Origin: Melittangium boletus DSM 14713
Lineage (GTDB): Bacteria > Myxococcota > Myxococcia > Myxococcales > Myxococcaceae
NCBI RefSeq assembly: GCF_002305855.1
Contig: NZ_CP022163.1
Location: forward strand, 7,003,765-7,067,764
Direction of reading: 5' to 3'
DNA length: 64,000 nt
The first letter of the stretch is position 1. Every line of letters begins with the position of its first letter. Below, in pieces: positions 1 through 23,427 of this stretch. The notes beneath the pieces are model-generated. The model saw only the letters and a list, made by a program, of their open reading frames with translations, was not told the origin of the DNA and made no database searches. The translations under genes and the position numbers were made by a program.

Positions 1-3000
1 GGTCGTACACCGAGCAGTCGAAGGCGGCCGCGGCCGGGGTGAGGAAGTCCGCGGCCAGGCTGATCGAGAGCCACTGCCGGGTGTCCTCGGTGTCCCGTGA
101 GGGGTCTAGCGCGCGGTCGCCGACTGGCGGGTCCGCGACCGGGGCGAGCCAGCGGGGCAGGTCCGCCAGCACGTCGGGGTGATGGGCGTGCTGAAGCAGG
201 GCCCGCGCCCACTGCGGGAACGGCGTGCCGGTGGCGGGCAGCACCGGGGCGCGGCCGTCGCGGACCGCCGCCCAGGCCGTGTGCAGGTCGTCGAGCAGGA
301 TGCGCCAGGACACGCCGTCCACGCACAGGTGGTGCGCGGTCAGCTTGAGCCGATCCTCGCACCAGGTGGCGTGCAGGACGCGGCCGAGGGCCAGGTTGAT
401 GGGCCGGTCCAGCTCAACGGTGACGTGCTCCAGCACCCGCAGCGCCCACACACCCTTCACTTCGGACAGTGCGAGGCGCAGCATGCCGTGGTGGTCGACC
501 AGCGCCTGGACCACGGCGCGCACCTGCTCGGCCGTGCACCCGGCCGGGGTGCGCACGGTCATCGACTGGACGAACCGGTTGTCCGGCGCGCCCCGGCCGC
601 GCAGCCAGTGCATGACCGGGGTGAGCGGCACGGTCGGGTCGTCGGGGTCGCCGAGAGCCAGGCTCCGGCCGCGCGCGGCGGGCAGCGCGAGGCCCTTGGC
701 CAGGGCGGTGACGGTCGGGGCGCGGAAGACGTCGGAGGTGCTGACGGCCAGCCCGGCGCGCTGCGCGGCGGCGGCGAGCTGAATGGCCCGGATGCTGTCG
801 CCACCGAGCTTGAAGAAGTCCCCGTCCACGGGCACCTCGGCCCGGCCGAGCACCTGCGCGAACAGCTTCGCGAGGGTCCGCTCGGCGGCCGAGCCGGTGG
901 CGCGCACCGGCTCGGGCGCGGGGGCAGCGGGGTCGGGCAGGGCGGCGCGGTCGAGTTTCCCGTTGCGGGTCAACGGCAGCGCGGCCAACCCGACCACGGC
1001 CGAGGGCACCAGGAACGGCGGCAGCCGCTCACCGAGCCGCTCCAGCAGCCCGTCCGGGACCTCGCCGACGACGTAGGAGACCAGGCGGCCCTCGCGCAGC
1101 ACGGTCGCGGCCTGCCGCACCCCCGGCTGGGCCAGCAGCGCGGCGTCCACCTCACCCAGCTCCACCCGAAAGCCGCGCAGCTTGACCTGGCCGTCGGCGC
1201 GCCCGGCGAACTCCAGCTGCCCGTCGGCGTTCCAGCGGGCCAGGTCGCCGGTGCGGTAGACGCGGGCACCGGGCGGACCGGACGGGTCGGGCAGGAAGCG
1301 CTCGGCGGTGGCCGCCGGCCGGTTCAGGTAGCCCAGGGCCACGCCCGCGCCACCGATGTACACCTCGCCGATGGTGCCGAGCGGCACGGGGCGCAGGGCC
1401 GCGTCGAGCAGGAGCACCCGCATGCCGTCCAGGGGACGGCCGATGGGGACCACGTCGGTGACCGGGCCCGCGGGGTAGCGGGTGGCGAAGACGGTGGTCT
1501 CGGTCGGGCCGTAGCCGTTGACGACGGTGAGCCCGGGCAGTGCTTCCCGCACGGCGCGCACGGCGGCGGGGGAGACTACGTCACCGCCGGTCCACACCTG
1601 GCGCAGCCCGGTAAGGCAGCGCGGGTCCTGGGTGGCGATCGCGTTGAACAGCCCGGCGGTGAGCCACATGCCGGTGACCCCGGCGGTGGCGATGGTGCGG
1701 GCCAGCTCGCCGGGGTCGAGCCTGCCGGGCGGGGCGAGCACGATCTCGCCGCCGGTGAGCAGCGGGACCCACAGCTCCAGGTTGATCGCGTCGAAGGCCT
1801 GCGGAGAGTGCAGCAGCACCCGCTCGGCGCCGCCCTCGGTCCACCAGCGGTCGGCGGCGAGGTCGACCAGGTTGGCGTGCGTGACACCGACGCCCTTGGG
1901 CGTGCCGGTGGAGCCCGAGGTGAACATGACGCAGGCCAGGTCGTCCCCGCCGACCTCCGGGCACGCGGCGCCCGGGCCGGTGCCGTTGACGGTCAGCACG
2001 CGCAGACCGGGGGCCGTCGCGTCCGCCTGGTCGGTGAGCAGCAGCCGGGCCCCGGAGTCGGCGAGCACGACCGCACGCCGGGGCGGCGGGTCCTCGGCGT
2101 TCAGGGGCACGTAGGCCGCGCCGGACTTGAGCACGGCGAGCACGGCGACCACCAGGTCCACCGAGCGCTGCAGCAGCATCGCGACGTTGTTGCCGGGCCC
2201 GGCACCCGCCCCGGCGAGCCGGGCGGCCAGGGCGGTGGCCCGCGCGTCCAGCTCGCGGTAGGTCAGCCTCCGCCCGGTCGCCGGGCAGTGCACCGCACCG
2301 GCCTCCGGTTGTTGGCGGACCCGCGCGGCGAAGGCCGAGGTCACCGTGCTGGCTCGCGCCGCCTGTGCGGCCCCGGCTCCCAGGTCGGTCAGGTGCGCGC
2401 GCTCGGCGGCCGTGGTGGGTTGGACGTCGACCAGGGGCGTGTCCGGGGTGGCCTCGACCAACTGCCACAGCACGTGCTCGAACCGCTCGCCCAGCTCCCG
2501 CAGCCGCTTGGGGGAGCACGTGGTGGGGTTGGCGTCGAAGTCCAGGCGCAGCCTGCCGTCACCCCGGTCGTAGGCCACCACGGACAGGTCCTCCGACGGC
2601 GGGGCCTGGAGGTTGTGCACGGTCACCGTCGCCGAGCCGAAGCGCAGCACGTGGTCGAACCGCTGGATGTTGAGCACCGGTCCGAAGAACTTCCGCCCGT
2701 CCTCTGGCAGCCCCAGCTCGCGCCGCAGGCGTTCGCCCCGGTAGCGCTGCCGCGACCGGATGGCGCTCAGCTGCGCGGACACCTCCTGGAGCAGGCCGCC
2801 CACGGTGCCCACCAGGTTGACGCGGATGCGCAGGGGCACCACGTTGGCCGTCATGGCGGGCACGGCCACCTCCGCCGCGCGGCCGGAGACGGGCAGGCTG
2901 AGCAGCAGGTCCGGCTGCCCGGTGACGGCATGCACGTGCACGGCGGTGGCCGCGGTGACCACGCGGGACCACCGCGTCCCCAACCGCTCGGCGCCCTGCC

Positions 3001-3704
3001 GCAGCCGGGCGAACTCCCCTTCCTCCAGCACTCGGGTCCACCGCACCGAGGCCTCGGCGGCGGGCGCGGCGCGCGACCCGACCACCACCGGCTCGGGCCG
3101 GTCGGCCAGCCGTGCGAGCCACCACTCGCGGTCCTCGGCCAGTGCGGCCGAGTCGCGGTACGCCTGCTCGGCCGAGGTCACCTCGGCCAGGGCGGCCCAC
3201 CCGGTTCCGGGCACGACGCGCCCTTCCCGGAGGCACTCGTAGATCTCGGCCACGCGCCGCACGAGCAGCGCCATGCCCGCGCCGTCGAGGGCGATGTGGT
3301 GCACCCGCAGGAACACCCACTGCCGCTCCTCGGCCAGCCGCAGCACGGCACCGAGGAACAGCTCCTCGCCCGCCGCCGCGAGGCGCTCCGCCATCCACGC
3401 CCGCGCCGAGGCGATGGGATCGGGGGCCTCCCGGAAGTCCACGGTGGTGACCCGGGGTTCGGCGGAGTCCAGGACCCGTTGCCGGGGAAGGGAATCGGCC
3501 GTCTCCTCGAAGACCACCCGGACCGCCTCGCACTCCGCGGCGGCCCGCGTGAGCGCTGCGGTCAGCAGGTCGGTCCGGACGGTCCCGCACAGGTCCAGAT
3601 ACTCAGCCCACTGGTAGGAGCCGGGACGGCTGTACCCGGCGCGCTCGGCGAGCCACACACCGGTCTGGGCATCGGACAGTTCGAGTCTAGCGCTCTGGTC
3701 GACC
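1..3704 (-). CDS. Non-ribosomal peptide synthetase, 5' part (starter condensation domain then adenylation domain; continues beyond window start)
   Basis: Minus-strand frame is open from ~3704 to position 1. The translation starts with a C-domain ('ELSDAQTGVWLAE...VHHIALDGAGM' = HHxxxDG motif). It is followed by an A-domain ('LTYRELDARATALAARL', 'FTSGSTGTPKGVGVTHANLV', 'LTGGEIVLAPPG'). Candidate GTG start with GGTGAGGA upstream at ~3704. The ORF track omits it because it runs off the window edge. Confidence 0.8.
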
Positions 3705-3807
3705 ACGTGGGAGGTGTCCTCACCAGCTTGTGTGGGTCAGCGGGGCGCTCTTCTAGCACGGAATGTTTTGGCAAAAAGCAAAGTTCGAGTTTTCCCGTTT
3801 TAGCGCA

Positions 3808-4160
3808 CTATTGGAGGAGGGCGTCGGGCCAGCCCGCTGGACAAGCGGGGTCTCCGTGAGAAGGAGAGCAAGCCATTGGATGAGGCCACCTGCCTTGGGG
3901 ACCCTGCCTCTGCTCCTGGACAGCTCCCACCACCGGGCTGTTGATATACCCCCGGTCGATGTACAGCTCGTCCATTCCAATGCCTTGTCGCCTTATGTCT
4001 TTCTGGAGCTCCGGAGTGGCCTCCGCCTCGGGCCGGTTGGCTGGAGTGACGGTGCAGGCGACTAACGGGCCCATCTCCACCTCCGCGGCGATGTGCTGCT
4101 TGAACCCATTGAAGCGCTTGCTCTGGCTCTTGCGGCCGTGACGCATTTCGCTGTCTTCCA
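3808..4160 (-). pseudogene. Transposase remnant (IS1182/IS5-superfamily-like internal fragment)
   Basis: Minus-frame peptide 'MRHGRKSQSKRFNGFKQHIAAEVEMGPLVACTVTPANRPEAEATPELQKDIRRQGIGMDELYIDRGYINSPVV' resembles the conserved core of IS1182-type transposases ('MRHGRKSSSKRFDGYK...TPANxxD'). No intact N- or C-terminus. Local GC is lower. Sits exactly at the junction between the NRPS and the YD-repeat genes. Confidence 0.5.
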
Positions 4161-4342
4161 CCGACACTCGCTTGTCAGGTGCTACCGCCTGGTGGAACTG
4201 TCCGGGGTCCTTGGAGAGGGCGATCCCGAGAGCGGAAGTTGCGCGAGCCTTCGAGAAGAGCCGGCAGCGAGGCTCTCGATCTTCCGGAGCAGAGCGCGAT
4301 CCACCTCCCCACCTGGGTGAGGGTTCCAGTCGTTCAGGGCTG

Positions 4343-5662
4343 CTAGTCACACTCGTACTTGAAGTCGCGGCGCACCGGACCGTCGTCCAGGCCCGGCGTG
4401 CCCGAGTACTCCTCGTGCACGAGCCGTCCCTTGTCATCGCGCTCGTGGGTGCGCCGGGCATCCACGACGCCGTCCTGGTCGCTGTCCCACTCGTCGAGCC
4501 AGACGATCTTCGTGCCACACAGGTATGTGAGCCGGCGGGTGGTGGTCAGGTACGTGGTCACCAAAGGGTATTCGATGCCGGGGCCCGAGAGCTGGGTGTA
4601 GACCTTGCCAAGCCGCTCGAGCAGCAGCAGGCCCGAGGCGTCGTAATAGAGGGTCCGCACGAACTCGTGGCTGCGGTAATAGCCGCCGTATTTTTCCCAG
4701 CTTCGGAACACCCGGCGGGCCGCGTCGTGGGAGGTGACGGTGTGTCGGACATGCTCGAAGCCCTCCTCCTGTTCGTCCACGAGGTTGCCCCGGTCGTCGT
4801 ACAGGTTCGTGAAGCTCATGTGGTGGTCGTCGGTCCACGCGTTCTGTTTCACGTGGCCATTGGGCCAGTAGGTAAACGTCTCGCAGCGGGCGACTCTCAG
4901 GTCGCAGTCCGGCCGACTGTCGATCTCCACCAACTGACCCACCGCGTTGTAGTGGTAGACGATCGGGCCGTCCTGTCCGTTCGAGGTCTGGCGCTCGATG
5001 CGTTCGAGACGGCCCTTCGCGTCGCGGATGTACTGGTAGGAGCGGGGAAGGGTGGGCGCGTCGAACGTCTCGGTCCGCCGCGCGAGCCGGCCCGCGTCGT
5101 CATACGCCCACTCGATTTGGTCCCAGGAGCCCTCGGGGAACTCGAGGCGGCGGAGCGTTTCGTGGCCGTTCTTCCAGGTGTGGAACTCGGTCTCTTGCAG
5201 CGTGCCATCCGGCCCGTAGCGGCGCCGCTCCAGCAGGCGGCTGTCGGCGTCGTAGCGGGCCACCTCGCGGTCGCCGTTGGCGAAGACCGAGGTGCCCTCG
5301 CACGCCGTGGCGCGCACGGGCGCCACCTTCCCCTTCCAGGGCACACAGGCCACGGGCTTGAGGGTGGGGGAACCCTCGAGGCCCGCGCTCACGGGGGGAA
5401 CCTCGCCCGGCGACGGCGGGGGCTGCACCACGGGCACCGTGGGCTCCTGGGTGGGCGTCTCGGGCTGCGTCGAGGGCTCACCCGGAGGAGGCGCCTCACC
5501 CGTGGGGGGCGTGGACGCGGGCGGCTGGGCGGGCACGGGCGTGTCCGGGAGGGGCGCCGGGGCTTCGGGTGTGGGCCCTGGCGCGGGCTCCTCGCGCGTC
5601 GCACCACACCCCACGAGCATCGCGCACACGCTCCATCCCATCAGCCTCCAGTGCTTGCGCAT
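4343..5662 (-). CDS. YD-repeat (RHS-repeat-like) lipoprotein, paralog A
   Basis: Start ATG at ~5662 with GGAGGGGAG RBS. Lipoprotein signal 'MRKHWRLMGWSVCAMLVGCGA', then a Pro-rich linker. Multiple 'YDxxGRL'-type YD repeats ('ARYDADSRLLERRRYGPDGTL', 'YDDAGRLARR', 'YDDRGNLVDE'). The C-terminal ~60 aa are nearly identical to the divergently encoded paralog. Confidence 0.7.
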   Translation of the reverse strand: MRKHWRLMGWSVCAMLVGCGATREEPAPGPTPEAPAPLPDTPVPAQPPASTPPTGEAPPPGEPSTQPETPTQEPTVPVVQPPPSPGEVPPVSAGLEGSPTLKPVACVPWKGKVAPVRATACEGTSVFANGDREVARYDADSRLLERRRYGPDGTLQETEFHTWKNGHETLRRLEFPEGSWDQIEWAYDDAGRLARRTETFDAPTLPRSYQYIRDAKGRLERIERQTSNGQDGPIVYHYNAVGQLVEIDSRPDCDLRVARCETFTYWPNGHVKQNAWTDDHHMSFTNLYDDRGNLVDEQEEGFEHVRHTVTSHDAARRVFRSWEKYGGYYRSHEFVRTLYYDASGLLLLERLGKVYTQLSGPGIEYPLVTTYLTTTRRLTYLCGTKIVWLDEWDSDQDGVVDARRTHERDDKGRLVHEEYSGTPGLDDGPVRRDFKYECD

Positions 5663-5891
5663 TCCCATCTCCCCTCCGGTTGGTTGGCCGGCAAGGTGTG
5701 CACGTGGAGTGTGGGCGCCCATAGCCCCCGGTCGCTCGCTTGGGTACATGCCGAACGCTTGGCGACGGAAACGACATGAGGCGCGGACTCCACTCTACAC
5801 GCCTCCCATTCGCCCGATGCGTTGACTCCGGGTGAAGTCTTGTAGGGCGATGGGTCCATGAACACCTTCCCGCGACAACAGGGGAGGGAGC

Positions 5892-7157
5892 ATGGGACGG
5901 GGGCGGAGCGCATGGATGCTGGCCATGTGTCTGGTGGTGAGCGCATGTGGAAGCACGTCACCATCTCCCGCCGAGCCCACCGAGTCGGGGGAGCGGACGG
6001 GGCTGGGTCCGGGCGACGACCCGGCTGGCGGTGGCACGGTGTCCGGACTGGAGGGTGAGCCGTCCCTGCCGCCGCGTGCGTGCATCCCCTGGACGCGCCC
6101 GACGCCCCCGGTGCGAGCCACGGCGTGCGCGTCCTTCTCCGTGTTCGCGGATGGCTCCTCCGTGCGCGCCCGGTATGACGCCGACAGCCGTCCCCTCGAG
6201 GTGCGCGAGTTCTCGAGCGACGGCACGCTCCACACGGTGGAGACGCGTGTCTGGAGCGAGGGACTCGAGCGGCTGTACCGCCGGGAGGAGCTCGCGTTCG
6301 GCTTGTCCACCCAATCGGAGTGGACTTATGACGGCCGGCGGCTGCTGCGGCGCGTGGACTCGTTCTCGCACGACCCCCCGAAGACGTATGACTACGTCTA
6401 CGACGCCCAGGGCCGTATCACGCGCGTCGTGCGCCAGTGGTCCGGGGAGTCGGTCACGAGTCTCTACACCTACGACGTGCAAGGGCGCCTGGTGCGCATC
6501 GCCGACGAGCAGAGCGATTGGCTGTGCGGCTCGGGGGACAGCCGATGCGCGAGCCTGTCCTATTGGCCCAATGGTGTGCTCAAGCGCCACGAGTGGGAGA
6601 CCGGGAAGATGAACTTCGAGGAGGAGTTCGATGCGGCGGGCCGGCTCGTCGGGTCGCTCGCGCAAGACCCGGACCACCTGAGGCGCCGCCAGCTGGGCTA
6701 CGACGAGGCGGGGCGTTTGCGCCGGGAGTGGCGCTTGCACTCCTGGTACGTCTGGGACGCCACCTCCGTCACGCGCACCGTCTACGATCCCGCGGGGCGG
6801 CGCGAGCGGTTCGCGGAGGAACTGGCGGACTATGGCGAATGTGGGGCCCGTTTGCCGGATTGCGAGCCGGAGCGGAGCTCCGTGCACGTCACCCGCCGGA
6901 CCACCTTTTTCTGTGGCACGGAGATTGTCGCGCTCGACGAGTGGGACGGCGACGAGGACGGCGTGGTGGATGCCACGCGTACGCACGAGCGCGATGACGC
7001 GGGCCGGCTGGTGCACGAGGTGTACTCGGGCACGCCGGGACTGGATGACGGGCCCGTGCTGCGCGACTTCACCTATGAGTGCGCCCCGTCCGGCGTCGCT
7101 CAGACGCAGGGCGATGCCGGTGGTGAAGCCCGCGCCCGCGCTGCACAGGTGAGGTGA
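5892..7157 (+). CDS. YD-repeat (RHS-repeat-like) lipoprotein, paralog B
   Basis: ATG with GGGGAGGGAG RBS. Lipoprotein signal 'MLAMCLVVSACGS'. YD repeats ('ARYDADSRPLEVREFSSDGTL', 'YDAQGRITRV', 'YDVQGRLVRI', 'YDEAGRLRRE'). C-terminus 'WDGDEDGVVDATRTHERDDAGRLVHEVYSGTPGLDDGPVLRDFTYEC' matches paralog A. Confidence 0.7.
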   Translation: MGRGRSAWMLAMCLVVSACGSTSPSPAEPTESGERTGLGPGDDPAGGGTVSGLEGEPSLPPRACIPWTRPTPPVRATACASFSVFADGSSVRARYDADSRPLEVREFSSDGTLHTVETRVWSEGLERLYRREELAFGLSTQSEWTYDGRRLLRRVDSFSHDPPKTYDYVYDAQGRITRVVRQWSGESVTSLYTYDVQGRLVRIADEQSDWLCGSGDSRCASLSYWPNGVLKRHEWETGKMNFEEEFDAAGRLVGSLAQDPDHLRRRQLGYDEAGRLRREWRLHSWYVWDATSVTRTVYDPAGRRERFAEELADYGECGARLPDCEPERSSVHVTRRTTFFCGTEIVALDEWDGDEDGVVDATRTHERDDAGRLVHEVYSGTPGLDDGPVLRDFTYECAPSGVAQTQGDAGGEARARAAQVR

Positions 7158-7368
7158 TCCAAACCTCCCGTCTCCACACTTCACAACGCGCCGGGCGATT
7201 CTAAGGCACTCGGCGTTGCCGTGAGCGCGCACACATGCACGCCGTGGGATGGCGTACGGCCTCCACGCAACCTCCAGGGCACAGTTCTCCGCTAACGAGG
7301 AGGCGCGGATCGGCTTAGAGGACCAATCGGCGGGAACCAGGTTCACGAGGATGGAATGACCGAAGGCC

Positions 7369-8043
7369 TCATGCAGCTGGCCTGACCAGCCCGAGCTTCA
7401 AAAGGCTGTCCGAAGTGGCGACGACGGCGTCCTCGAAGGGCCGAGGCGACCAGCCCAGAAGCTTCTCTGCCTTTGCGCTGCTCGTCTCGCGCACCGACCC
7501 CAGGTGCGGCAGGACCACCTTCGCGGCCGGGTTGTGCAGTGCCGCAAGCCTCACGCGCCAATTGGGGAGCTCGCGCGTAGAGACGTGCGCGCCCAGCTTC
7601 CGCTTCAGTACCCGCGCCACGTCCGCGATGGAGTGGGTGCCCGGTGCCGCGGCGATGAAGCGCTCGCCCTTCGCCGCCGGGTGAGTCATCGCGCGTAGGT
7701 GCAGCTTCGCCACGTCGCGGACATCGACGTACGGCGAATAGACCTTCGGGCAGCCCGACATCGCGCCGCTCAGGAGCTGCTTGATGATTCCGATCGAGTG
7801 CGACGTGTCAGGCCCAAGCACCGGTCCCAGCACGCCAACGGGATTCACCGCGCTCAGTTCCAGTGCTCTGCCTTCACGCGCGAGGAAATCCCAGGCGGCG
7901 CGCTCCGACAGGGTCTTGGATCGCTGATAGAGCGGAACCCACGCCTCCTCACTGCTCCAGTCCGTCTCCAGATAAGGCCCACGTTTGGCGGTTGGAGTGG
8001 CGAGGCGGAGAAGCGTTACACCTGATTCTACAAAAGCGTGACG
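7369..8043 (-). pseudogene. NAD-dependent epimerase/dehydratase (SDR) family gene, N-terminally disrupted
   Basis: The C-terminal 159-aa ORF is clean. Extending upstream in frame gives '...PLYQRSKTLSERAAWDF...' (the catalytic YxxxK of SDRs). That frame hits a TAA at ~8045 with no Met and no Rossmann 'TGxxGxxG' segment. Rossmann-like remnants appear only in other frames at 8050-8400. Confidence 0.45.
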
Positions 8044-8419
8044 ATGCTCTGCCGCGGTCGGGCTCGCCCGCGATTAAGAGGACCCGGAGGTTTCCGTCCT
8101 CCACATTCAGCACCGCGGCGGCGTCCTGGGGCGCGAGACCTTCGACATCGCAGAGCACCACCGCCGCCCGCCACGCGTCGGGGAGCTTCCGGAACTCGCC
8201 CTCCAGGTGTCGCAGCAGCTCGCGGTTTCCTGCGACTTGCTCTGGGTCCTCCAGCGCCGCGGGCCAGGGTCAGCTTCCGCCAGGTGGGCGTGGGGTTGGT
8301 GCCGCAGTCGGTGGCCACCGCGGAGTCGATGGGGAAGGCCGTGGCGGACGCACGCGCGACAGCGCGCAACGCGGGTCGGGGGACGTCAGGGTCCGCGAGC
8401 GCACCCACCCCGGCTGGGC

Positions 8420-9106
8420 GGGGGCGCGCAGCATGAAGACGGCATCATTGAAGTCCCGGTCTTCGCCCCCACTCAAGTCCTCGAAGCCGAGGAACCACCG
8501 GTCCGGCGTGGTGCTCGGGGCGCTCAACAGGGCGTGTGGCATGGTGCCCGTGCCCGACACGGGCAGGAAGGCGGCTTCCTGTCCGAGCGGAGCGGTGCCG
8601 GTGGGGGGCGCCAGGTTGTAGAGGTCCTCGTGCAGGTCCGCGATGCCATTGCCATTGGCGTCTCGCAGCGTGTCGTCCGATGAGTCCGCCGGTGTGCCCT
8701 GGGTGTCGATGTAGCCGCGGGCGACGAGATCGTCGTAATACAGCCAGCCGAGTGTGTTGCTCCCGGTCGTGGTTCCTCCGACGAGCGAGATGCTCAGCGG
8801 CTGGTCGTGGGTGAAGACGATGCGTTCCACGGACAGAGGGGGCGCCGGTGGGGTGGTCTGGATTTTCGAGTTCGGCGTGAGCGTCACGTTCTGGAGCGTC
8901 TCGAAGTCCGCGGGGAGGAAGGACGTCTGGTGATTGAGGCTCAGGTTCTGCGTCACGCTGAAGCCGAACCCCATCGTGGCGGACAGCCCAAGGTCATTGG
9001 TGGCGGTCACCGAGACAGGGGCGCTCCCCTCCGCCAGACAGATGGGCGCGGTCCACAGCAGGCCGCTGTCGTTCGTTCCTGATACCAGCATCCGCGATCC
9101 AGTCAC
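8420..9106 (-). CDS. DUF4114-domain protein (possibly truncated; no signal peptide found)
   Basis: Minus ORF containing 'WFLGFEDLSGGEDRDFNDAVFMLRA', the characteristic DUF4114 C-terminal motif. The open frame downstream of the motif (to 8270) is low-complexity read-through. N-terminus uncertain (GTG at 9106 or ATG at 9091). No secretion signal, although this family is usually secreted. Confidence 0.4.
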
Positions 9107-9250
9107 CCAGCCGCCCTCGTCCCGCGGGGGACGGAGGACACCCTGGTGCTCCCGGCGACCGACCCCTCAACAGAGCGCCTGTTCCGTCCCATGCGTTTCG
9201 CGAACTTGAGGGCAGGATGGACGTGATGTATATACATCATCGGTGCCTGC

Positions 9251-10135
9251 ATGAATGTCGACTCCATCCTCTTCTTGGTCCTGGGCGTGATCTGGGGAAC
9301 GAACTTCCTCTTCATGAAGGAGGCCGTTCAGGTCATCTCGCCGCTGCAGGTGGCCTGGCTGCGCGCCTCGTTCGGGGCAGTCCCCATCCTGCTCTTCGCG
9401 TTCTCGCGCAGGAGCCTGGCGAAGGCCGACCTCCGCAACGCGCACCACTTCGCGGCAATGTCGATTCTCTCCATCGTTGTCCCGTACGTGAGCTTCGTGA
9501 AGGGCACGCAGTATCTGCAGTCGGGAGCGGCCGGCGCGATCAGCGGCATCATCCCCTTGATGACAGCGGTGGCCGCCGCGCTCTTTCTTCCGAAGGATCG
9601 ATTGAGCGCGAGAAAAGGACTCGGATTGCTTCTCGGGCTCGTCGGCGTTGCCTGGGTCGCCGACGTGACCCGGCTCTTCGAGGCCTCATCGAGCAATGCC
9701 CTGCACGGCACCCTCTGCATGCTCTTGGGTTCGGCGGGATACGCGTCAGGGATGGTCTACGCCTACAAGTTCATCACGCCCTTGAAGCTCAGCCCCATCG
9801 CGCTTGCCGGGTATCAAACCGCCGGTGCGGCCTTGTTGCTCGCGTTCATCACCCCCATGAAGGGCGTCGAGGCGGTGGCGAGCGTGCCTGCATCCCTCGC
9901 CGCGCTCGCATTGGGGCTCGGACTGCTCGGCACGGGGATCGCGTTCATCCTCTACTACCGCATCATCGAGCGCCTGGGCGCGATCACCGCGTCGTCGGTC
10001 TTCTATATCCCGCCAGTGGTCGCCCTCGCCGTCGGCGCGCTTGTTGGCAAGGAGGGGCTTTCTCTCTCCCAGTGTCTGGGAACCGCGGTCATCTTGCTCG
10101 GCGTCTTTCTTGCCCGAAATGGAGCTCCGGCTTGA
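9251..10135 (+). CDS. EamA/DMT-family transporter
   Basis: 294 aa with ~10 hydrophobic helices and two EamA-like halves ('LFLVLGVIWGTNFLFMK', 'LLLGLVGVAWV'). Confidence 0.85.
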   Translation: MNVDSILFLVLGVIWGTNFLFMKEAVQVISPLQVAWLRASFGAVPILLFAFSRRSLAKADLRNAHHFAAMSILSIVVPYVSFVKGTQYLQSGAAGAISGIIPLMTAVAAALFLPKDRLSARKGLGLLLGLVGVAWVADVTRLFEASSSNALHGTLCMLLGSAGYASGMVYAYKFITPLKLSPIALAGYQTAGAALLLAFITPMKGVEAVASVPASLAALALGLGLLGTGIAFILYYRIIERLGAITASSVFYIPPVVALAVGALVGKEGLSLSQCLGTAVILLGVFLARNGAPA

Positions 10136-10608
10136 AACCAAAGAAGAAGAGTCCCGAGGCTTCGCAGCCAGATTTGAAGCCCATTCAGTGCGTGTGCACG
10201 AACTTGAAGATGGCTTCACGCGTTGTGGGCCGTGCGTATGACCTGGCGCTCGAGGAGAGCGGCGTGAACGTCATCCAGTACTCGATCTTGATCAACGTCT
10301 CGCGCTACCAGCCCATCTCCCAGATGCGGCTCGCCGAACATCTCGAGATGGAACGGACGACTTTGTACCGTGCGCTCGACATCCTCGAAAAGAAGGGCCT
10401 CGTGGCCTCTGAATCGAACGGCGAAGGCGTCGCGAAGGTGGTGCGGCTGACCGCTCGCGGGACAGACGTCACGTCCGCTGCTGCGCGAAAATGGAACTTG
10501 ATGCACGAGGGGTTCCTGTCGAAGTTCGGCCCCCGGAGGCTCAAGGAGCTCAATGCGCTCCTCGGCGAAGTTCGAGACCACTTCAAGCACGTCAACCCCT
10601 CCACCTGA
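10132..10608 (+). CDS. MarR-family transcriptional regulator
   Basis: Winged-helix MarR pattern 'VNVIQYSILINVSRYQPISQMRLAEHLEMERTTLYRALDILEKKGLV...VRLTARG'. TTG start overlaps the EamA stop. Alternative ATG at 10213. Confidence 0.75.
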   Translation: MKPKKKSPEASQPDLKPIQCVCTNLKMASRVVGRAYDLALEESGVNVIQYSILINVSRYQPISQMRLAEHLEMERTTLYRALDILEKKGLVASESNGEGVAKVVRLTARGTDVTSAAARKWNLMHEGFLSKFGPRRLKELNALLGEVRDHFKHVNPST

Positions 10609-10612
10609 AGGT

Positions 10613-10884
10613 GATGTCCGCGTGAGGCGCGAGGATGGTGCCCCAGAAGCCGTAGCTGGTGGCCTCGATCTTCGTGGTGTCGACGAAGTTGAAGAGGACG
10701 CTCTTCTGATTGATGCCACCGCTGAATGACTGGCCGAGGTGGCGAACCGGGCGTACGCGCCCCGGATGTTGATGACGACGCGGGAGTTGACCGGCGCGTT
10801 GATGGAGAAGTCGTTCTTCCGGCCGAAGACGCTGGTGTCCACGTCCTCGGCCACCTGGGAGACGCTCTTGCCTCCCTCGCACAC
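10613..10884 (-). pseudogene. Choice-of-anchor-A domain fragment (frameshifted)
   Basis: Two adjacent minus frames give '...NDFSINAPVNSRVVINIRGAYARF' and 'SGGINQKSVLFNFVDTTKIEATSYGFWGTILAPHADITF'. Together these match the choice-of-anchor-A pattern (VVINV-G...LFNFP...GSILAP-A). No start and no signal peptide. Confidence 0.4.
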
Positions 10885-10929
10885 TGAAGCTCCGCCTCTT
10901 CCTTCTCTCCATGGACACTACCTCTCGTG

Positions 10930-11085
10930 TAGCCGACTTATGCGGTATGTCCACTAAAACGCCTCTCCCGCACTTCATGTGCTCCATGAGCCGTCCAAGA
11001 GCGGGACTCCTGCTGCTCCGTCGCACGCGACTCGCCAGCCGAGCAGCGAACACACAAAGTGCGGGAGAGCCACTAAAGCGGGGCA
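10930..11085. repeat. MITE-like element copy A (terminal inverted repeats CCGYTTTAGTGGCTCTCCCGCACTTT)
   Basis: Left arm 10933-10970 ('ctaaaacgcctctcccgcacttcatgtgctcc'). Right arm 11043-11070 ('acaaagtgcgggagagccactaaagcgg') is its reverse complement. Second copy at 57787-57967. Confidence 0.5.
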
Positions 11086-11108
11086 GGCTCACCCCGAGGT
11101 GCTACGTG

Positions 11109-12137
11109 ATGCGTTGTTCACTGGTGCTGCTCTGCTTGGCCCTGATGGGGTGTGGCGGCGCTGCTCCAAGCGTCCGTCATACGCCGGATGAGCAGAGGCG
11201 CTGTGTATATGTCCCGTCCCGTGACGAGGCGGCCGGAGCCTGGAATGAGACGGTGCCCTCCGCTCACGCGGGTGTGAACGTGGTGCTTGTCGCGGCGACG
11301 GCGGGGGCTTCGCCCGTGGCTCCCCCTGCCCCAAGTCCGGCTCCTGCCCTGGAATGGCTGTCGGGTGAGGGGTTGGGGAACGGCATTCCCCGGGGCGTGC
11401 TCCGGTTGGTGCCTGAAGGAGGCGCGGGCGCGGAGGTAGGGGCTGGCGGAGCCGCAGGGGAGACGGTGGTGGTGGGGGGAGCGTTCGTCGCAGCCGTTGG
11501 CAGTGGGCTGCTGGTCTGCCTGACGGCTCGTGCGGCCCTGGATGGGGAGAAGACCCCCATCGAGATTGCGGACGAGTATTACGGCACACACTTCGGAGAC
11601 GTGATGGGGTGGGTTCAAGGTCAATACCCGGCCCAGGTTCCTCCTCCTGGCGCAGCGCCCAGGTCGAAACCCGACGAGAGCACCGGCAAGAGGCTGGGGC
11701 GCATCTATGTCACCTACACAAAGCTCAATAAGATGACCCACCGCTACTACGCGGGGCGGACCAGCATGGTCGTCGATCTTGCTGTGTCCCTCGAATTTCA
11801 GGCCGCACTGGCGGTTTTCCTCCGAGACAGAAACCACCACCTGGACGAGAATGCTGAACCGGGTGGCGCCATGTTCGGCTTGGCGCAGACTGATCGATTT
11901 GATGTCGGCACCGGGGTTGACTATAGCCGTCGATACGACGACGTCGCTTACTGGCGGATTCGCGGGAGAGAGCAGCAGTTGATTGATTCCCTTGGAGGAG
12001 CCCACGCTGACACCGGAGCGCCTTATCGCACCGAGAACGCCGTACGCGGCGTGGCGAAAGAAAATCCACAAGGCAGAAGGTTCCACTCCGCCGCGACGGA
12101 GTTGTGGGGCCAACTTCACCCTTACACGGGATACTAG
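11109..12137 (+). CDS. Lipoprotein, candidate OME-delivered (SitA-like) polymorphic toxin; function of C-terminal domain unknown
   Basis: Start ATG 11109 (GTG 11106) preceded by GAGGTG, lying inside the right arm of the MITE-like element. Lipobox 'LLCLALMGCGG'. Ala/Gly/Pro-rich linker, then a globular C-terminal domain. Followed 3 nt later by a small low-GC ORF. Confidence 0.55.
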   Translation: MRCSLVLLCLALMGCGGAAPSVRHTPDEQRRCVYVPSRDEAAGAWNETVPSAHAGVNVVLVAATAGASPVAPPAPSPAPALEWLSGEGLGNGIPRGVLRLVPEGGAGAEVGAGGAAGETVVVGGAFVAAVGSGLLVCLTARAALDGEKTPIEIADEYYGTHFGDVMGWVQGQYPAQVPPPGAAPRSKPDESTGKRLGRIYVTYTKLNKMTHRYYAGRTSMVVDLAVSLEFQAALAVFLRDRNHHLDENAEPGGAMFGLAQTDRFDVGTGVDYSRRYDDVAYWRIRGREQQLIDSLGGAHADTGAPYRTENAVRGVAKENPQGRRFHSAATELWGQLHPYTGY

Positions 12138-19269: not shown

Positions 19270-20886
19270 TCATCCCCTCATCAGGTCGGCCCAATTCAAG
19301 TCGAACCGGGCGAGGTACTTGCGCAGCCGATCCGCGTCATTGACGCTCTTCTTCTGGGCCCGGGATTGGGCGAACAGGAGTCGTCCCGCGTCGGAGAGCG
19401 AGCGGGCCTGACGGCACACGGTGAGGACTTCCGCGAGCTGCGCCCGGTCGAACCGATCGAGCGCTTCCGCCCGCTCGGCTCCCAGCACCTCCGTCACCAC
19501 GTCCTCCGCCGGGTGGCGCCGCGTGCCGGGCGTCCACGCGGCGAGCAGCCGCTCCCACTCCTCGTCCACGCCCTCGCGGGTGATGCGTCCTCCCGGCGCG
19601 AGCGTGGCCATGCGCAGCACCGCCGCGTTGAGGTCCCGGAAGTTGCCGCTCCAGCGCGCCTCGGGCGAGGTGGCGAAGCGCAGGAAGTGCTCCTGGGCCT
19701 CCTTGTTCATCGTCACCCGCGTGTCCAGTGCCTGCGAGGCCTGATCCAGCTCGTAGAGCAGGTTGGGGAGGATGTCCTCGGGCCGCTCGCGCAGGGGCGG
19801 CAGGCGGAAGGTCCACAGGTTGATGCGCGCGAGCAGATCCTCCCGGAAGCGTCCGCCCTCCACCTCGGCCAGCAGGTCGCGGTTGGTGCCCGCGAGGAGC
19901 TGGAAGTCGCTCTCCACCTCCTTGTCCGAGCCCACGGGCAGGAAGCGTTTGTCCTCGAGCGCCCGGAGGAGCATGGCCTGCTCGTCCGCGCCGAGCTCGC
20001 CGATCTCATCGAGGAACAACAATCCACCGTGTGCCTGCCGCAGCAGCCCCGGCCGGTCCGCCACCGCACCGGTGAACGCGCCCTTCACGTGGCCGAAGAG
20101 GGCGGACATCGCCCCGTCCCCACGCAGGGTGGCGCAGTTGACGTCCACGAACGGGCCGCTCACGTGCCGCCGGGTCTTCTTGAGCTGGTAGATGCGCTTG
20201 GCGAGCTGGGACTTGCCCGCCCCCGTGGGCCCCATCAGGAGGAGGGGCGCGCGGGAGCTCGTGGCCACCTGTTCGATCCGCTCGATGAGCCGGTTGAAGG
20301 CCGCGTTCCTCGTGTCGATGCCCGCCTTGAGGAAGGACAGGCCCTCGCGCTGCTCCTGCTGGAAGCGGCTCGCCAGCGTGTCGTACTGGGACAGGTCCAG
20401 GTCGATGAGGGCATGCACGCCGGGGCCTCCCTGATCCCTTCCCCCATGCGAGGGCGACGTCTGCACGAGCCGGGCGGGGATGTGGCGGCTCTCCACCAGG
20501 AGGAAGAGGCAGATCTGCGTGATGTGCGTCCCGGTGGTGATGTGGACGAGGTAGTCCTCCTGCTCGGGCTGGAAGGGGTAGGCCTTCGCGTAGTCGAGCA
20601 GCGCGCCGTAGACCTCCTCCAGGTCCCACGGGTTGCGGATGTCCACGGGGGTGGGGCGCACGCGCGTTTCCGGGGACACCTGGGCGATGTCCGCCGTCAC
20701 CGTCTGGGCCAGGTCCGCCTGCGCCGGGGGGTGGAGCAGTTCCAGGCGGTGCACCACCAGATCCTCCTGCTGGCACAGTCCCACGGTGGGCCGCCACCGC
20801 TCCCACCGCTTCGGAGTCCTCCCCGTGTCCAGGGTGGTGCCCAGCATCCCGATCACCACCGTCTCGCGCGCCCGTGTCTTCGCCAT
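19270..20886 (-). CDS. rtcR: Sigma-54-dependent transcriptional regulator RtcR (CARF-like N-domain + AAA+ + HTH)
   Basis: AAA+ sigma-54 activator motifs ('LLMGPTGAGKSQLAKRIY', 'GAFTGA', 'GLLFLDEIGEL', 'RFREDLLARINLWTFRLPPLRERPEDI'). Divergent from rtcBA. Confidence 0.85.
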   Translation of the reverse strand: MAKTRARETVVIGMLGTTLDTGRTPKRWERWRPTVGLCQQEDLVVHRLELLHPPAQADLAQTVTADIAQVSPETRVRPTPVDIRNPWDLEEVYGALLDYAKAYPFQPEQEDYLVHITTGTHITQICLFLLVESRHIPARLVQTSPSHGGRDQGGPGVHALIDLDLSQYDTLASRFQQEQREGLSFLKAGIDTRNAAFNRLIERIEQVATSSRAPLLLMGPTGAGKSQLAKRIYQLKKTRRHVSGPFVDVNCATLRGDGAMSALFGHVKGAFTGAVADRPGLLRQAHGGLLFLDEIGELGADEQAMLLRALEDKRFLPVGSDKEVESDFQLLAGTNRDLLAEVEGGRFREDLLARINLWTFRLPPLRERPEDILPNLLYELDQASQALDTRVTMNKEAQEHFLRFATSPEARWSGNFRDLNAAVLRMATLAPGGRITREGVDEEWERLLAAWTPGTRRHPAEDVVTEVLGAERAEALDRFDRAQLAEVLTVCRQARSLSDAGRLLFAQSRAQKKSVNDADRLRKYLARFDLNWADLMRG

Positions 20887-20888
20887 AC

Positions 20889-20921
20889 GGATAGGAATTT
20901 ATCCCAGAGGATAGGAAATCG
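20889..20921. promoter_or_regulatory. Candidate RtcR upstream activating sequence: palindrome GGATAGGAATTTATCC plus repeated GGATAGGAAAT half
   Basis: 20889-20904 is GGATA-N6-TATCC inverted repeat. 20909-20919 repeats GGATAGGAAAT. ~60 bp upstream of the sigma-54 promoter. Confidence 0.4.
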
Positions 20922-20955
20922 GGCGCGGAAAGACGCTCCCCCTGGGGAGAAGCGT

Positions 20956-20971
20956 TGGCACGCGCCCTGCT
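20956..20971 (+). promoter_or_regulatory. Sigma-54 (-24/-12) promoter for rtcBA
   Basis: TGGCACgcgccCTGCT matches TGGCAC-N5-TTGCW (GG at -24, GC at -12). ~55 bp upstream of the rtcB ATG. Confidence 0.6.
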
Positions 20972-21025
20972 CTACCCCTCCCCGTGCCCGGCGGGACCGG
21001 GCGGACACTTCCGAGGGAGCAGGCC

Positions 21026-22261: not shown

Positions 22262-22410
22262 GCGGAGTGTGCCTGGAACCCTGACCCGGGAGGACGCCAT
22301 GAGGGGATAAAGACATCGAGACGCCCGCTCCCTCCGAGACTTCGGTCAGTAGGATGGGGGAGCGGGCGTCGCTACGTGCGGGCAAGGGGATTCACAGGGA
22401 GGGAGACGAC

Positions 22411-23427
22411 ATGGTTCGCATCGATGGTTCGAAGGGAGAGGGGGGCGGGCAGGTCCTGCGCACGTCGCTGGCGCTGTCGCTGGTGACGGGGACGCCGTTC
22501 CAGATGGAGAACATCCGCGCGGGGCGCTCCAAGCCGGGACTGTTGCGCCAGCACCTGACGTCGGTGAAGGCGGCGGCGGCCGTGGGCGGGGCGGAGGTGG
22601 AGGGCGCGGAGCTGCATTCCCGGACGCTGACGTTCCGGCCCCGGAGCGTGAAGCCGGGGGACTACCACTTCGCGGTGGGCACGGCGGGGAGCGCCACGCT
22701 GGTGTTGCAGACGGTGCTGCCGGCGCTCCTGAGCGCGAGCGGGCCGTCCACGCTGGTGCTGGAGGGCGGGACGCACAACCCGGCGGCGCCGCCGTTCGAC
22801 TTCCTGACGAAGGCGTACCTGCCGCTGGTGCGGAAGATGGGGCCGGTGGTGGAGGCGTCGCTGGAGCGGCCCGGGTTCTTTCCCGCGGGGGGAGGGAAGT
22901 TCCGCGTGAGTGTGCGGCCCGCGCCGCTCGAGCCCCTGCACCTGTTGGAGCGGGGGAAGGTGGTGCGCCGGCTGGCCACGGCGATGGTGGCGCAGGTGCC
23001 GTTCGACGTGGCTCAGCGGGAGCTGACGACGGTGGGGCGCACGCTCGGGTGGAGCGCGGAGGAGCGCCGGGTGGAGGAGGTGAAGCGCTCGGCGGGACCG
23101 GGAAACGTATTGTCGCTGGAGGTGGAGAGCGAGCACGTCACCGAGGTGTTCACGGGCTTCGGGGAGCGGGGTGTGCGGGCGGAGGCGGTCGCCGAGGCGG
23201 TGGCGGAGGAGGCCCGGGTCTACCTGGAGGCCGAGGTGCCCGTGGGCCCGCACCTGTGTGATCAGCTGTTGCTCCTGCTGGCCCTGGCCCGGGGAGGCTC
23301 GTTCCGGACGCTGCCCCTCGAGGGACATGCGCTCACCCAGATGGAGACGTTCGCGCACTTCACCGATGTGCGGGTCACCGAGACCCCCATCGCCCCCCGG
23401 GTGAGGGAAATCGTGGTGCGCGGTTGA
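22411..23427 (+). CDS. rtcA: RNA 3'-terminal phosphate cyclase RtcA
   Basis: 'IDGSKGEGGGQVLRTSLALSLVTGTPF...AVGTAGSATLVLQTVLPAL...HLCDQLLL' is typical of RtcA. The listed ORF begins earlier, at a spurious in-frame ATG. Confidence 0.85.
   Translation: MVRIDGSKGEGGGQVLRTSLALSLVTGTPFQMENIRAGRSKPGLLRQHLTSVKAAAAVGGAEVEGAELHSRTLTFRPRSVKPGDYHFAVGTAGSATLVLQTVLPALLSASGPSTLVLEGGTHNPAAPPFDFLTKAYLPLVRKMGPVVEASLERPGFFPAGGGKFRVSVRPAPLEPLHLLERGKVVRRLATAMVAQVPFDVAQRELTTVGRTLGWSAEERRVEEVKRSAGPGNVLSLEVESEHVTEVFTGFGERGVRAEAVAEAVAEEARVYLEAEVPVGPHLCDQLLLLLALARGGSFRTLPLEGHALTQMETFAHFTDVRVTETPIAPRVREIVVRG

What the first reader, a model, noticed from the sequence alone, without database searches (positions are those of the whole stretch)
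1..4340. Compositional and coding boundary: NRPS gene end abutting a transposase remnant
The NRPS segment (1-3704) is ~75% GC with actinomycete-style sequence. The next 600 bp fall to ~55-60% GC and contain an internal fragment of an IS1182-like transposase plus an AT-rich promoter-like stretch. This suggests the NRPS locus borders, or was mobilised by, an IS-mediated event. The starter C domain hints at a lipopeptide product.
Basis: partly seen in the sequence, partly recalled or inferred. Interest (0 to 1): 0.5.

Follow-up and report, generated by a model that had tools for sequence, protein, structure and literature searches.

The report
Horizontally spread NRPS cassette edge
The GC step marks the upstream edge of a small, uncharacterised three-gene peptide-synthetase operon of actinomycete type that occurs almost unchanged in many distantly related myxobacteria, and the transposase piece beside it is a dead fragment that marks a local rearrangement rather than a proven vehicle.

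Summary
The window comes from Melittangium boletus DSM 14713. An NRPS gene on the minus strand (GTG at 3706, running off the left end) has 75.4% GC, against 68.5% for the rest of the window. The next 636 bp have 62% GC and contain a 94-118-aa internal fragment of an IS1182-family transposase (3919-4200, minus strand).

The boundary is biological. From about 76-120 bp upstream of the start codon, the DNA is 93-98% identical to loci in Cystobacter fuscus, C. ferrugineus, Stigmatella hybrida, another Melittangium, three Sorangium cellulosum genomes and Byssovorax. The flanks differ on both sides between genera. Orthologous loci show a tight operon of about 13.5 kb: an NRPS (starter C-A-T-E-C-A-T-C-A-T-TE), an acyl-ligase-like enzyme and a cupin-like protein. 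The nearest relative outside myxobacteria is the same operon in the actinomycete Crossiella equi, at about 82% nucleotide identity.

I read this as recent horizontal spread of an actinomycete-type cassette. IS-mediated mobilisation is not shown. The fragment has no ends. A related complete IS lies next to the Sorangium copies, but it is only 60% identical to the fragment. The starter-C call is supported. A lipid rather than an aryl cap is plausible but unproven.

The parts
2..3706 (-). 5' third (1235 codons) of an NRPS gene. The start codon is GTG at 3706-3704 and the gene runs off the left end of the window. Orthologues are 3617 aa.
   Evidence: One open frame from 3736 to 2 on the minus strand, with GC1/2/3 of 0.78/0.53/0.95. 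Pfam domains. 95-96% nt identity to C. fuscus, Sorangium and other loci.
2390..3685 (-). N-terminal starter-type condensation domain. It has HHIALDG at residues 136-142 and Met145 at the acyl-gate position.
   Evidence: Pfam Condensation. Best solved structures are RzmA-Cs 7c1h (208 bits), ObiF1, CdaPS1-Cs 4jn3 and EntF; the elongation C domain of TycC scores only 40 bits. NCBIfam's best match is the MxcG C domain at 3e-99. Gate residue alignment (PMC7804268).
956..2332 (-). Adenylation domain 1, with specificity code DALWWGGVFK (Val-like).
   Evidence: Pfam AMP-binding and AMP-binding_C. The assignment is an inference.
695..877 (-). Thiolation (carrier) domain 1, with FFKLGGDSI.
   Evidence: Pfam PP-binding 1.4e-12. 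Motif.
2..649 (-). First part of an epimerisation domain (HHLCVDGVSW), cut by the window edge.
   Evidence: Best solved structures are the TycA E domain 2xhg, TycA 9bfg, PvdL and the GrsA E domain 5isw.
3707..3782 (-). Leader and presumed promoter region, conserved in all five loci compared. This is the minimal upstream edge of the shared cassette.
   Evidence: Alignment A1. blastn homology with Sorangium and Byssovorax ends at window 3782. No sigma-70 consensus.
3783..3827 (-). Further upstream sequence shared only with the Cystobacter fuscus copies. Homology ends at 3815 (strain NCWS) and 3827 (strain Cbf 10).
3828..3918 (.). Junction sequence found only in M. boletus, between the cassette edge and the IS fragment. 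It contains the short hairpin CCCGCT-GGACA-AGCGGG.
   Evidence: No match in any fetched locus. Read directly from the sequence.
3919..4200 (-). Internal fragment of an IS1182-family DDE transposase, with an HMM envelope of about 3877-4230. It has the same orientation as the NRPS. About 18-22% of a full transposase remains and there are no IS ends.
4201..4342 (.). Spacer of unknown origin between the IS fragment and the stop codon of the next gene.
   Evidence: Its translation has no family match. The N-terminal 278 residues of the transposase are missing.
4343..5749 (-). First host-side ORF (468 aa; weak YD-repeat signal). It opens a 4-12 kb stretch with lower GC3 (0.84-0.88) that includes an RHS-repeat ORF.

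Best explanation
Window 1-3827 is the upstream end of a compact, horizontally acquired biosynthetic operon of about 13.5 kb in the Melittangium boletus chromosome.

The operon has three genes. They are translationally coupled in every orthologous locus examined. The first is a three-module NRPS (starter C-A1-T-E-C-A2-T-C-A3-T-TE). The second is an ANL-type acyl-ligase-like enzyme of 592 aa. The third is a 243-aa cupin-like protein.

Inferred chemistry: the ligase activates a carboxylic acid. The starter C domain transfers it onto a Val-like residue held on T1. The E domain inverts that residue. Two further condensations add an unknown residue and a Gly-like residue. The TE domain releases an N-capped tripeptide, which the cupin may modify.

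Inferred history: the operon type is native to actinomycetes, entered myxobacteria, and then spread recently between genera and suborders.

The GC step has three components. The NRPS is Ala/Arg/Val-rich and Lys-poor. It is followed by a low-GC conserved leader. Beyond that lies decayed foreign DNA. The IS1182 fragment lies just beyond the point where M. boletus stops matching C. fuscus. It marks a lineage-specific rearrangement at the cassette edge, either an IS insertion followed by deletions or insertion of the cassette into an IS. It is now inert.

Shown: the domain content, the boundaries, the identities, the differing flanks and the family of the IS fragment. Inferred: the direction of transfer, the chemistry and the role of the IS.
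For: Source genome: five window proteins are identical to M. boletus DSM 14713 entries ATB32345/47/51/63/68.

Cassette content: the C. fuscus orthologue is 3617 aa with 4 C-type, 3 A, 3 T and 1 TE domains. The ligase start overlaps the NRPS stop, and the X start overlaps the ligase stop. M. boletus has X as ATB32331.1.

Identities: the 1079-bp segment shared with the window is 94.7-96.4% identical to all myxobacterial copies. Over 10.7 kb the myxobacterial copies are 92.7-97.8% identical to one another. dS is 0.05-0.07.

No host signal: M. boletus versus So ce26 is 96.4% and versus C. fuscus 96.3%. M. boletus versus its congener CP185340 is 94.9%, although those two genomes share only 85.7% ANI (PMC12766979).

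Boundaries: the right edge lies at -76 to -120 bp from the start codon. The left edge lies 0-5 bp after the X stop codon between genera. Flanks are unrelated between genera.

Outgroup: Crossiella equi has the same three-gene synteny at about 82% nt identity, and its X protein is 83% identical. Named X homologues outside the tight myxobacterial cluster are almost all actinomycete, as are the NRPS hits.

IS fragment.
Against: The part of the M. boletus cassette left of the window could not be fetched. Its completeness there rests on accession numbering and on X being annotated.

Codon usage does not mark the NRPS as foreign.

No vehicle for transfer was identified. There is no integrase, no tRNA and no terminal repeats. 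Ends trimmed this tightly on both sides are not explained by random rearrangement alone.

dS is compressed by extreme GC3, so 'recent' is relative.

The ligase scores about equally against fatty-acyl, feruloyl, oxalyl and dihydroxybenzoate ligases.
Confidence: 0.75

Rival explanations
1. IS1182-type elements are the vehicle. The cassette moves as IS cargo (a composite or one-ended transposition), and the M. boletus fragment is what remains of the element that delivered it.
For: An IS1182 fragment lies 50-90 bp beyond the cassette edge in M. boletus, in the same orientation as the operon. A complete IS1182-type element sits 1.2 kb beyond the other edge in So ce26. It is 1736 bp with about 21-bp imperfect inverted repeats and a 529-aa transposase. 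A truncated copy sits 261 bp from the edge in two other Sorangium genomes. It belongs to the same subfamily as the fragment (59.6% aa over 94 aa, against 44% to a Nostoc IS1182). So ce26 also has an rve-type transposase 1.5 kb from the right edge.
Against: The IS sequences are only 60% aa / 66% nt identical while the cargo is about 96% identical, so they did not travel together recently. They lie on opposite sides of the cassette in the two hosts. C. fuscus, C. ferrugineus, S. hybrida, Melittangium CP185340 and Byssovorax have no transposase at the edges examined. No IS end sequence is found in the conserved leader. No repeats are shared between the two cassette ends. IS copies are locally frequent in Sorangium, so chance proximity is plausible.
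Confidence: 0.15
2. The NRPS is native and vertically inherited. Its high GC simply reflects NRPS amino-acid composition, and the gap is an ordinary intergenic region with an incidental IS scar.
For: Codon usage lies within the host range and GC3 is nearly equal. Low-GC 600-bp stretches occur elsewhere in the window.
Against: There is 93-98% nucleotide identity across two suborders with unrelated flanks, and no agreement with host relatedness. The nearest outgroup is an actinomycete.
Confidence: 0.03
3. The join at 3700-4400 is an assembly chimera.
For: None beyond the abrupt composition change.
Against: The same leader and gene start occur in four other independent assemblies, with breakpoints within 45 bp of each other. 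The copies differ by 4-5%, so this is not cross-contamination. Read-level data were not available.
Confidence: 0.01
4. On the product (independent of the rivals above): the cap is an aryl acid such as dihydroxybenzoate, giving a siderophore-like aryl-capped tripeptide rather than a lipopeptide.
For: The best family match of the C domain is MxcG, followed by EntF. ObiF1 is the best structure match for the N-lobe. All three take aryl donors. DHB-AMP and salicyl-AMP ligases score about 76-80 bits against the ligase.
Against: The tight three-gene operon has no aryl carrier protein, isochorismatase or isochorismate synthase. NCBIfam's best ligase matches are fatty-acid-CoA ligases, and no DHB-AMP ligase model appears in the top 25. 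RzmA-Cs and CdaPS1-Cs, which are true lipoinitiation domains, are also top structure hits.
Confidence: 0.3

Closest known systems
Lipoinitiation modules with a starter condensation (Cs) domain, e.g. RzmA of rhizomide (PDB 7C1H) and CdaPS1 of CDA (PDB 4JN3)
   Same: The C domain is the first domain of the first module. The HHxxxDG motif is intact. These are the best solved-structure matches (208 and 170 bits). The residue aligned with the RzmA acyl-gate R148 is Met, as in CdaPS1, which takes a C6 chain (PMC7804268).
   Different: Identity is modest. The N-lobe is as close to the aryl-accepting ObiF1, MxcG and EntF C domains. The acyl donor is unknown. The assembly line has only three modules and is paired with an atypical ligase.
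IS1182-family insertion sequences (NCBIfam NF033551), e.g. the complete 1736-bp copy at L026 11897-13632 in Sorangium cellulosum So ce26
   Same: The DDE transposase core is 59.6% identical over 94 aa to the Sorangium element. The IS1182 profile is the best family match.
   Different: Only residues 279-372 of 529 remain. There are no inverted repeats, no target duplication and no intact ORF. It is a relic, not an element.
Streptomyces-type BGCs in myxobacteria attributed to horizontal transfer, e.g. the indigoidine cluster in Melittangium (PMC12766979)
   Same: An actinomycete-type NRPS locus present in Melittangium and Cystobacter. The nearest outside relatives are actinomycetes.
   Different: This cassette is uncharacterised. 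It is spread over at least five genera in two suborders at 93-98% nt identity. It sits at different chromosomal sites and is trimmed to the operon edges. It is not listed among the conserved BGCs of that study.
The orthologous three-gene operon of Crossiella equi (L023) and Streptomyces spp. (L004, L006)
   Same: Same gene order and overlapping stop/start codons (NRPS 3596 aa, ligase 581 aa, X 242 aa). About 82% nt identity; X is 83% aa identical.
   Different: The host phylum differs. The Streptomyces versions are only about 70% nt identical, and their NRPS is longer (3820 aa or more).

Membership tests
NRPS starter-C (lipoinitiation) module | The condensation domain is the first domain of the first module, with no upstream module on the same protein | tested here: met
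   GTG at 3706 is the first possible start codon in the open frame. The C domain begins 7 residues later. The start is conserved in five loci.
NRPS starter-C (lipoinitiation) module | Intact HHxxxDG catalytic motif | tested here: met
   HHIALDG at residues 136-142.
NRPS starter-C (lipoinitiation) module | Groups with Cs domains rather than LCL, DCL or E subtypes | tested here: inconclusive
   The top structures all take non-aminoacyl donors. Two are true Cs domains (RzmA, CdaPS1) and three take aryl donors (ObiF1, EntF, VibH). The best family profile is MxcG. No subtype-specific profile or tree was available.
NRPS starter-C (lipoinitiation) module | A fatty-acyl donor is supplied, and the product carries a lipid | not testable with these tools
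   A coupled ANL ligase exists in the orthologues, but its substrate class is unresolved.
No other NRPS subunit feeds this C domain | Absence of a further NRPS gene in the operon | tested here: met
   In eight orthologous loci the shared DNA holds only the NRPS, ligase and X genes, and the NRPS ends in a TE domain.
IS1182-family insertion sequence | Full-length DDE transposase that reaches the family cutoff | tested here: not met
   72.6 bits against a cutoff of 270. Profile positions 243-343 of 488 only.
IS1182-family insertion sequence | Terminal inverted repeats and a target-site duplication | tested here: not met
   Only short chance repeats occur in 3650-4450. The inverted repeats of the Sorangium relative are absent.
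Composite transposon / IS-mobilised island | The same IS at both ends, conserved together with the cargo | tested here: not met
   So ce26 has an rve-type IS on one side and an IS1182-type IS on the other. IS identity is 60% against 96% for the cargo. Other hosts have none. The M. boletus far end could not be fetched.
Horizontally acquired genomic island | Distribution and similarity disagree with host phylogeny, and flanks differ | tested here: met
   ANI values from PMC12766979.
Horizontally acquired genomic island | Atypical composition | tested here: inconclusive
   GC is 3.8 sd above the window mean, but codon usage lies within the host range.
Horizontally acquired genomic island | Integrase or tRNA at the border | tested here: not met
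   The only tRNA is at 61517-61590. No integrase is found at the borders examined, apart from IS transposases.

The most novel reading that the evidence does not exclude
The three-gene operon behaves as a 'mobile operon'. It has been placed at many different chromosomal sites across two myxobacterial suborders, and before that across phyla. Its ends are trimmed to within 0-5 bp of the last stop codon and about 76-120 bp of the first start codon, and it carries no mobility gene of its own. This precision could reflect a capture or transfer mechanism not yet recognised in myxobacteria. One possibility is mobilisation in trans by IS1182-type transposases acting on cryptic ends. Another is repeated allelic replacement: in Sorangium the flank is 99.7% identical between strains but the cassette only about 97.5%.
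Probability: 0.15. Interest if true: 0.75.

Novelty: new member of a known kind. Interest (0 to 1): 0.5.

Why it matters
Secondary-metabolite clusters in myxobacteria are generally held to follow taxonomy, and a recent pan-genome survey found very few clusters shared between genera (PMC12766979). This cassette is small and self-contained. It occurs in at least five genera and two suborders at 93-98% identity, and its closest outside relative is in an actinomycete. That makes it a clean natural case of recent cross-lineage BGC transfer. At about 13.5 kb it is small enough to clone and express in one piece.

For the scan itself, the lesson is methodological. The composition step and the IS scar were correct pointers, but neither was proof. 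Codon usage would have 'refuted' a genuine transfer.

Tried and rejected
- The long + strand ORF 179-3859 is an antisense shadow, not a gene.
- Fetching M. boletus DNA left of the window failed. Two window proteins and the M. boletus X protein are 'not on record'.
- The first protein search, with the NRPS, returned no close relatives. All listed hits are 2162 aa or shorter, so long orthologues seem to be missing from that index. A search with the ligase N-terminus also missed them. The search with X succeeded.
- A sigma-70 promoter or terminator in 3600-4500: none found.
- Repeats around the fragment: only chance-level matches.
- A second copy of the IS in the window: none.
- Terminal repeats shared between the right cassette end and the left end: chance level.
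- The idea that the conserved leader is a relic IS1182 end: local alignments to the last 150 nt of the Sorangium IS score no better than shuffles in four of five loci (49-288 of 300 shuffles reach the observed score). So ce26 is marginal, at 11 of 300 on an 11-nt exact match. Rejected.
- Leader conservation with Streptomyces axinellae: none.
- Homology between the 543-aa genes flanking the cassette in C. fuscus and S. hybrida: none.
- Literature searches found no description of this cassette or its product.
- The fold of X gave only weak cupin-superfamily matches (TM about 0.35), so no specific function was assigned.
Full report
**What is in the window**

The 64-kb window is from the chromosome of Melittangium boletus DSM 14713. 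Five of its proteins are identical to entries ATB32345, 32347, 32351, 32363 and 32368.

Positions 1-3706 have 75.4% GC. No other 3.7-kb stretch of the window exceeds 72.2% (mean 68.5%, sd 1.8%). Positions 3707-4342 have 62.1% GC, which is the 5th percentile for stretches of that size. The lowest 300-bp window is 59.3%.

The coding strand is the minus strand. The only frame open throughout is 3736 to 2 on the minus strand, with GC3 of 0.95. The long + strand ORF 179-3859 is its antisense shadow.

GTG at 3706-3704 is the first possible start codon. GGTGAGGA lies 11-18 nt upstream of it, and the start is conserved in the related loci. What abuts the transposase fragment is therefore the beginning of the gene.

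**Domains of the NRPS part in the window**

Pfam gives Condensation, AMP-binding plus AMP-binding_C, PP-binding, and a second Condensation-type domain.

The second Condensation-type domain matches the epimerisation domains of TycA and GrsA best.

The first C domain matches these solved structures best:
- RzmA-Cs (7c1h), 208 bits
- ObiF1, 181 bits
- CdaPS1-Cs (4jn3), 170 bits
- EntF, 131 bits
- the elongation C domain of TycC, only 40 bits

PMC7804268 confirms that 7C1H and 4JN3/4JN5 are starter C domains. NCBIfam's best model is the C domain of the myxochelin synthetase MxcG at 3e-99.

The domain therefore belongs with C domains that accept a non-aminoacyl donor. Sequence alone does not decide between a fatty-acyl and an aryl donor.

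The residue aligned with the RzmA acyl-gate R148 is Met145. CdaPS1 also has Met at this position and takes a C6 chain (PMC7804268). This is a weak hint of a short to medium chain.

**The transposase fragment**

ORF 3808-4518 (minus strand) matches Pfam DDE_Tnp_1 at 5e-9. It matches NCBIfam IS1182 (NF033551) at 3e-20, but only over profile positions 243-343 of 488, at 72.6 bits against a cutoff of 270.

Against a complete relative found later in Sorangium, it covers residues 279-372 of 529, at window 3919-4200.

There are no inverted repeats, no target duplication and no second copy in the window. It is an inert internal relic in the same orientation as the NRPS.

**The boundary is the edge of a shared cassette**

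A scan of one genome per species found the N-terminal C domain at these protein identities:
- 92-96% in two Cystobacter fuscus strains, Sorangium cellulosum So ce26 and Byssovorax cruenta
- 60% in Streptomyces axinellae

At the DNA level, the window matches these loci from position 3 up to 3827 (C. fuscus Cbf 10), 3815 (C. fuscus NCWS) and 3782 (So ce26 and Byssovorax). Beyond those points nothing matches.

It has no sigma-70 consensus. The IS fragment lies just outside the shared DNA.

**The whole cassette**

In C. fuscus the NRPS is 3617 aa: starter C-A-T-E-C-A-T-C-A-T-TE.

Its stop codon overlaps the start of an ANL-type ligase of 592 aa. The ligase stop overlaps the start of a 243-aa protein, X, which has no Pfam family.

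A search with X found orthologues at 91-92% identity. Fetching their loci gave the same three genes in the following:
- C. fuscus
- C. ferrugineus
- Stigmatella hybrida
- three S. cellulosum genomes
- a second Melittangium genome (CP185340)
- a 164-kb metagenome contig

Cluster members add S. aurantiaca, S. ashevillena, 'Archangium' primigenium and M. boletus itself (ATB32331.1). By accession numbering, the ligase would be ATB32332 and the NRPS ATB32333. That numbering is an inference.

Between genera, homology stops 0-5 bp after the X stop codon. It extends 30 bp further between the two Cystobacter species and 261 bp further among the Sorangium strains.

The shared unit is therefore about 13.5 kb and contains no mobility gene.

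**Evidence for horizontal spread**

Over the 1079 bp shared with the window, M. boletus has these identities:

| Compared copy | Identity |
|---|---|
| So ce26 | 96.4% |
| C. fuscus Cbf 10 | 96.3% |
| C. ferrugineus | 95.9% |
| Melittangium CP185340 | 94.9% |
| S. hybrida | 94.7% |

CP185340 is the 9,298,785-bp genome that PMC12766979 reports at 85.7% ANI to M. boletus. The two C. fuscus strains share their insertion site and have 95.2% ANI. Their cassettes differ by about as much (96.3%) as cassettes from different suborders do.

Over 10.7 kb the myxobacterial copies are 92.7-97.8% identical. dS is 0.05-0.07 and dN/dS is 0.33-0.63.

Flanking genes are unrelated between genera on both sides.

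Between So ce26 and S. cellulosum CP150318, the flank is 99.7% identical but the cassette only 97.4-97.8%. This suggests the cassette allele was exchanged at a fixed site.

**Likely source**

The actinomycete Crossiella equi carries the same three genes with the same overlaps, at about 82% nt identity, and its X is 83% aa identical. Streptomyces copies are about 70% identical.

The named X homologues listed outside the tight myxobacterial cluster are almost all actinomycete, with a few from Deinococcus (479 hits in all). The same holds for the NRPS hits.

Deep diversity in actinomycetes and shallow diversity in myxobacteria point to transfer from an actinomycete lineage into myxobacteria. This direction is an inference.

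**Composition is not the proof**

NRPS codon usage differs from the pooled host genes by a JS distance of 0.028. Individual host genes range from 0.009 to 0.050.

GC3 is 0.947 against 0.921. The excess GC sits mainly at position 1 (0.783 against 0.694) and position 2 (0.532 against 0.468). This reflects Ala at 15.4% against 11.2% and Lys at 0.9% against 3.7%.

**Role of the IS**

Some evidence favours a link:
- The fragment sits 50-90 bp beyond the point where M. boletus diverges from C. fuscus.
- So ce26 has a complete IS1182-type element 1.2 kb beyond the other cassette edge. It spans L026 11897-13632, has about 21-bp imperfect inverted repeats beginning CTAGAG, and encodes a 529-aa transposase.
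- The same element is truncated to 261 bp from the edge in two other Sorangium genomes.
- So ce26 also has an rve-type transposase 1.5 kb from the right edge.

Other evidence argues against a link:
- The two IS1182 sequences share only 59.6% aa and 66% nt identity, while the cargo is about 96% identical.
- They lie on opposite sides of the cassette.
- Five other hosts show no transposase at the edges examined.
- No IS end is present in the leader.
- No repeats link the two cassette ends.

I read the fragment as a marker of a local rearrangement rather than a demonstrated vehicle. I give IS-mediated mobilisation a probability of about 0.15.

**Predicted function (inferred)**

The ligase matches fatty-acid-CoA ligase models best (FadD7-type, 1e-43). 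All matches are far below the family cutoffs, and no DHB-AMP ligase model appears in the top 25.

Against solved structures it scores 76-101 bits with feruloyl-, fatty-acyl- and oxalyl-CoA ligases and with DHB- and salicyl-AMP ligases alike. It lacks roughly 70 N-terminal residues (judged from the offsets of its matches to solved ligases) and carries a C-terminal extension of about 185-230 residues that matches nothing.

- A1: DALWWGGVFK (Val-like)
- A2: DVFSVAMV-K (unassigned)
- A3: DILQIGAVWK (Gly-like)

X folds with good confidence (pLDDT 83, pTM 0.84). It resembles cupins only weakly, at TM about 0.35. It carries invariant His residues in an HxH...H pattern.

The expected product is an N-capped D-Val-X-Gly tripeptide, possibly modified by X.

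**Verdict**

The finding is an uncharacterised but conventional type of locus: an NRPS operon acquired horizontally, next to an IS scar. Its breadth of spread and its tightly trimmed ends are more notable than the IS remnant itself.

Noticed in passing
window 30693-33134 (+): An 813-aa protein with Major Vault Protein domains (MVP_shoulder 1.6e-44, Vault, Vault_2, Vault_3). This is a bacterial homologue of the eukaryotic vault shell protein.
   Followed up: no
window 19270-23427: A complete RNA-repair set: RtcR activator (minus strand), then RtcB ligase and RtcA cyclase (plus strand).
   Followed up: no
window 4343-12000: The stretch next to the cassette has lower GC (0.66) and lower GC3 (0.84-0.88, against about 0.92 elsewhere). 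It holds RHS/YD-repeat ORFs, a DUF4114 ORF and several ORFs with no family. It may itself be a variable or foreign region.
   Followed up: partly
L001 9205-9618; L022 12186-14164 and 19646-20104; L025 13195-14115; window 5892-7157: Polymorphic toxin or immunity genes lie beside the cassette in four different hosts: an Imm11 fragment, AHH plus Imm11 and Imm26, TsiV, and an RHS repeat. This suggests the cassette tends to sit in hypervariable toxin-immunity regions.
   Followed up: partly
L026 versus L027 (S. cellulosum So ce26 versus CP150318): The flank downstream of the cassette is 99.7% identical over 4.5 kb, but the cassette is only 97.4-97.8% identical. There is also a 1184-bp deletion in L027 that removes an AttH fragment and the IS 5' end.
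   Followed up: partly
L027 11688-12449 and 15932-16880: Two IS1182-type copies in inverted orientation (99-100% identical) bracket a beta-lactamase-family gene and a 191-aa ORF. The arrangement resembles a composite transposon.
   Followed up: no
L022 17748-18064: A second, 320-bp fragment of gene X (96.6% identical) lies 7 kb downstream of the cassette in C. ferrugineus.
   Followed up: no
L002 9971-19767 (C. fuscus NCWS): The NRPS is split over three reading frames, and X is annotated as 149-aa and 66-aa pieces. This is either long-read assembly error or decay of the cassette in this strain.
   Followed up: partly
L009 1-2319 (soil metagenome contig): The ligase start (98% identical) is joined, exactly 4 bp upstream of its ATG, to unrelated lower-GC DNA that encodes histidine-kinase-like and LacI-like fragments. 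This is either a rearranged variant without the NRPS or a chimeric contig.
   Followed up: no
L007 1-20780 (metagenome contig): More distant homologues of the ligase (63%) and X (69%) sit without an NRPS among IS21, rve, Mutator-type transposase and phage-integrase genes. A luciferase-like monooxygenase follows.
   Followed up: no
L021 10001-10732 (gene X) and its 479 homologues: X is a strongly conserved 243-aa protein with no Pfam or NCBIfam family, and 82 invariant columns among 28 diverse members. Its predicted fold is only weakly cupin-like. It appears to be an undescribed family, mostly in actinomycetes and a few Deinococcus.
   Followed up: partly
L021 8226-10004 (ligase): An atypical ANL enzyme. 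It is short by roughly 70 residues at the N-terminus, judged from alignment offsets to solved ligases. It has a C-terminal extension of about 185-230 aa with no match in Pfam, NCBIfam or PDB.
   Followed up: partly
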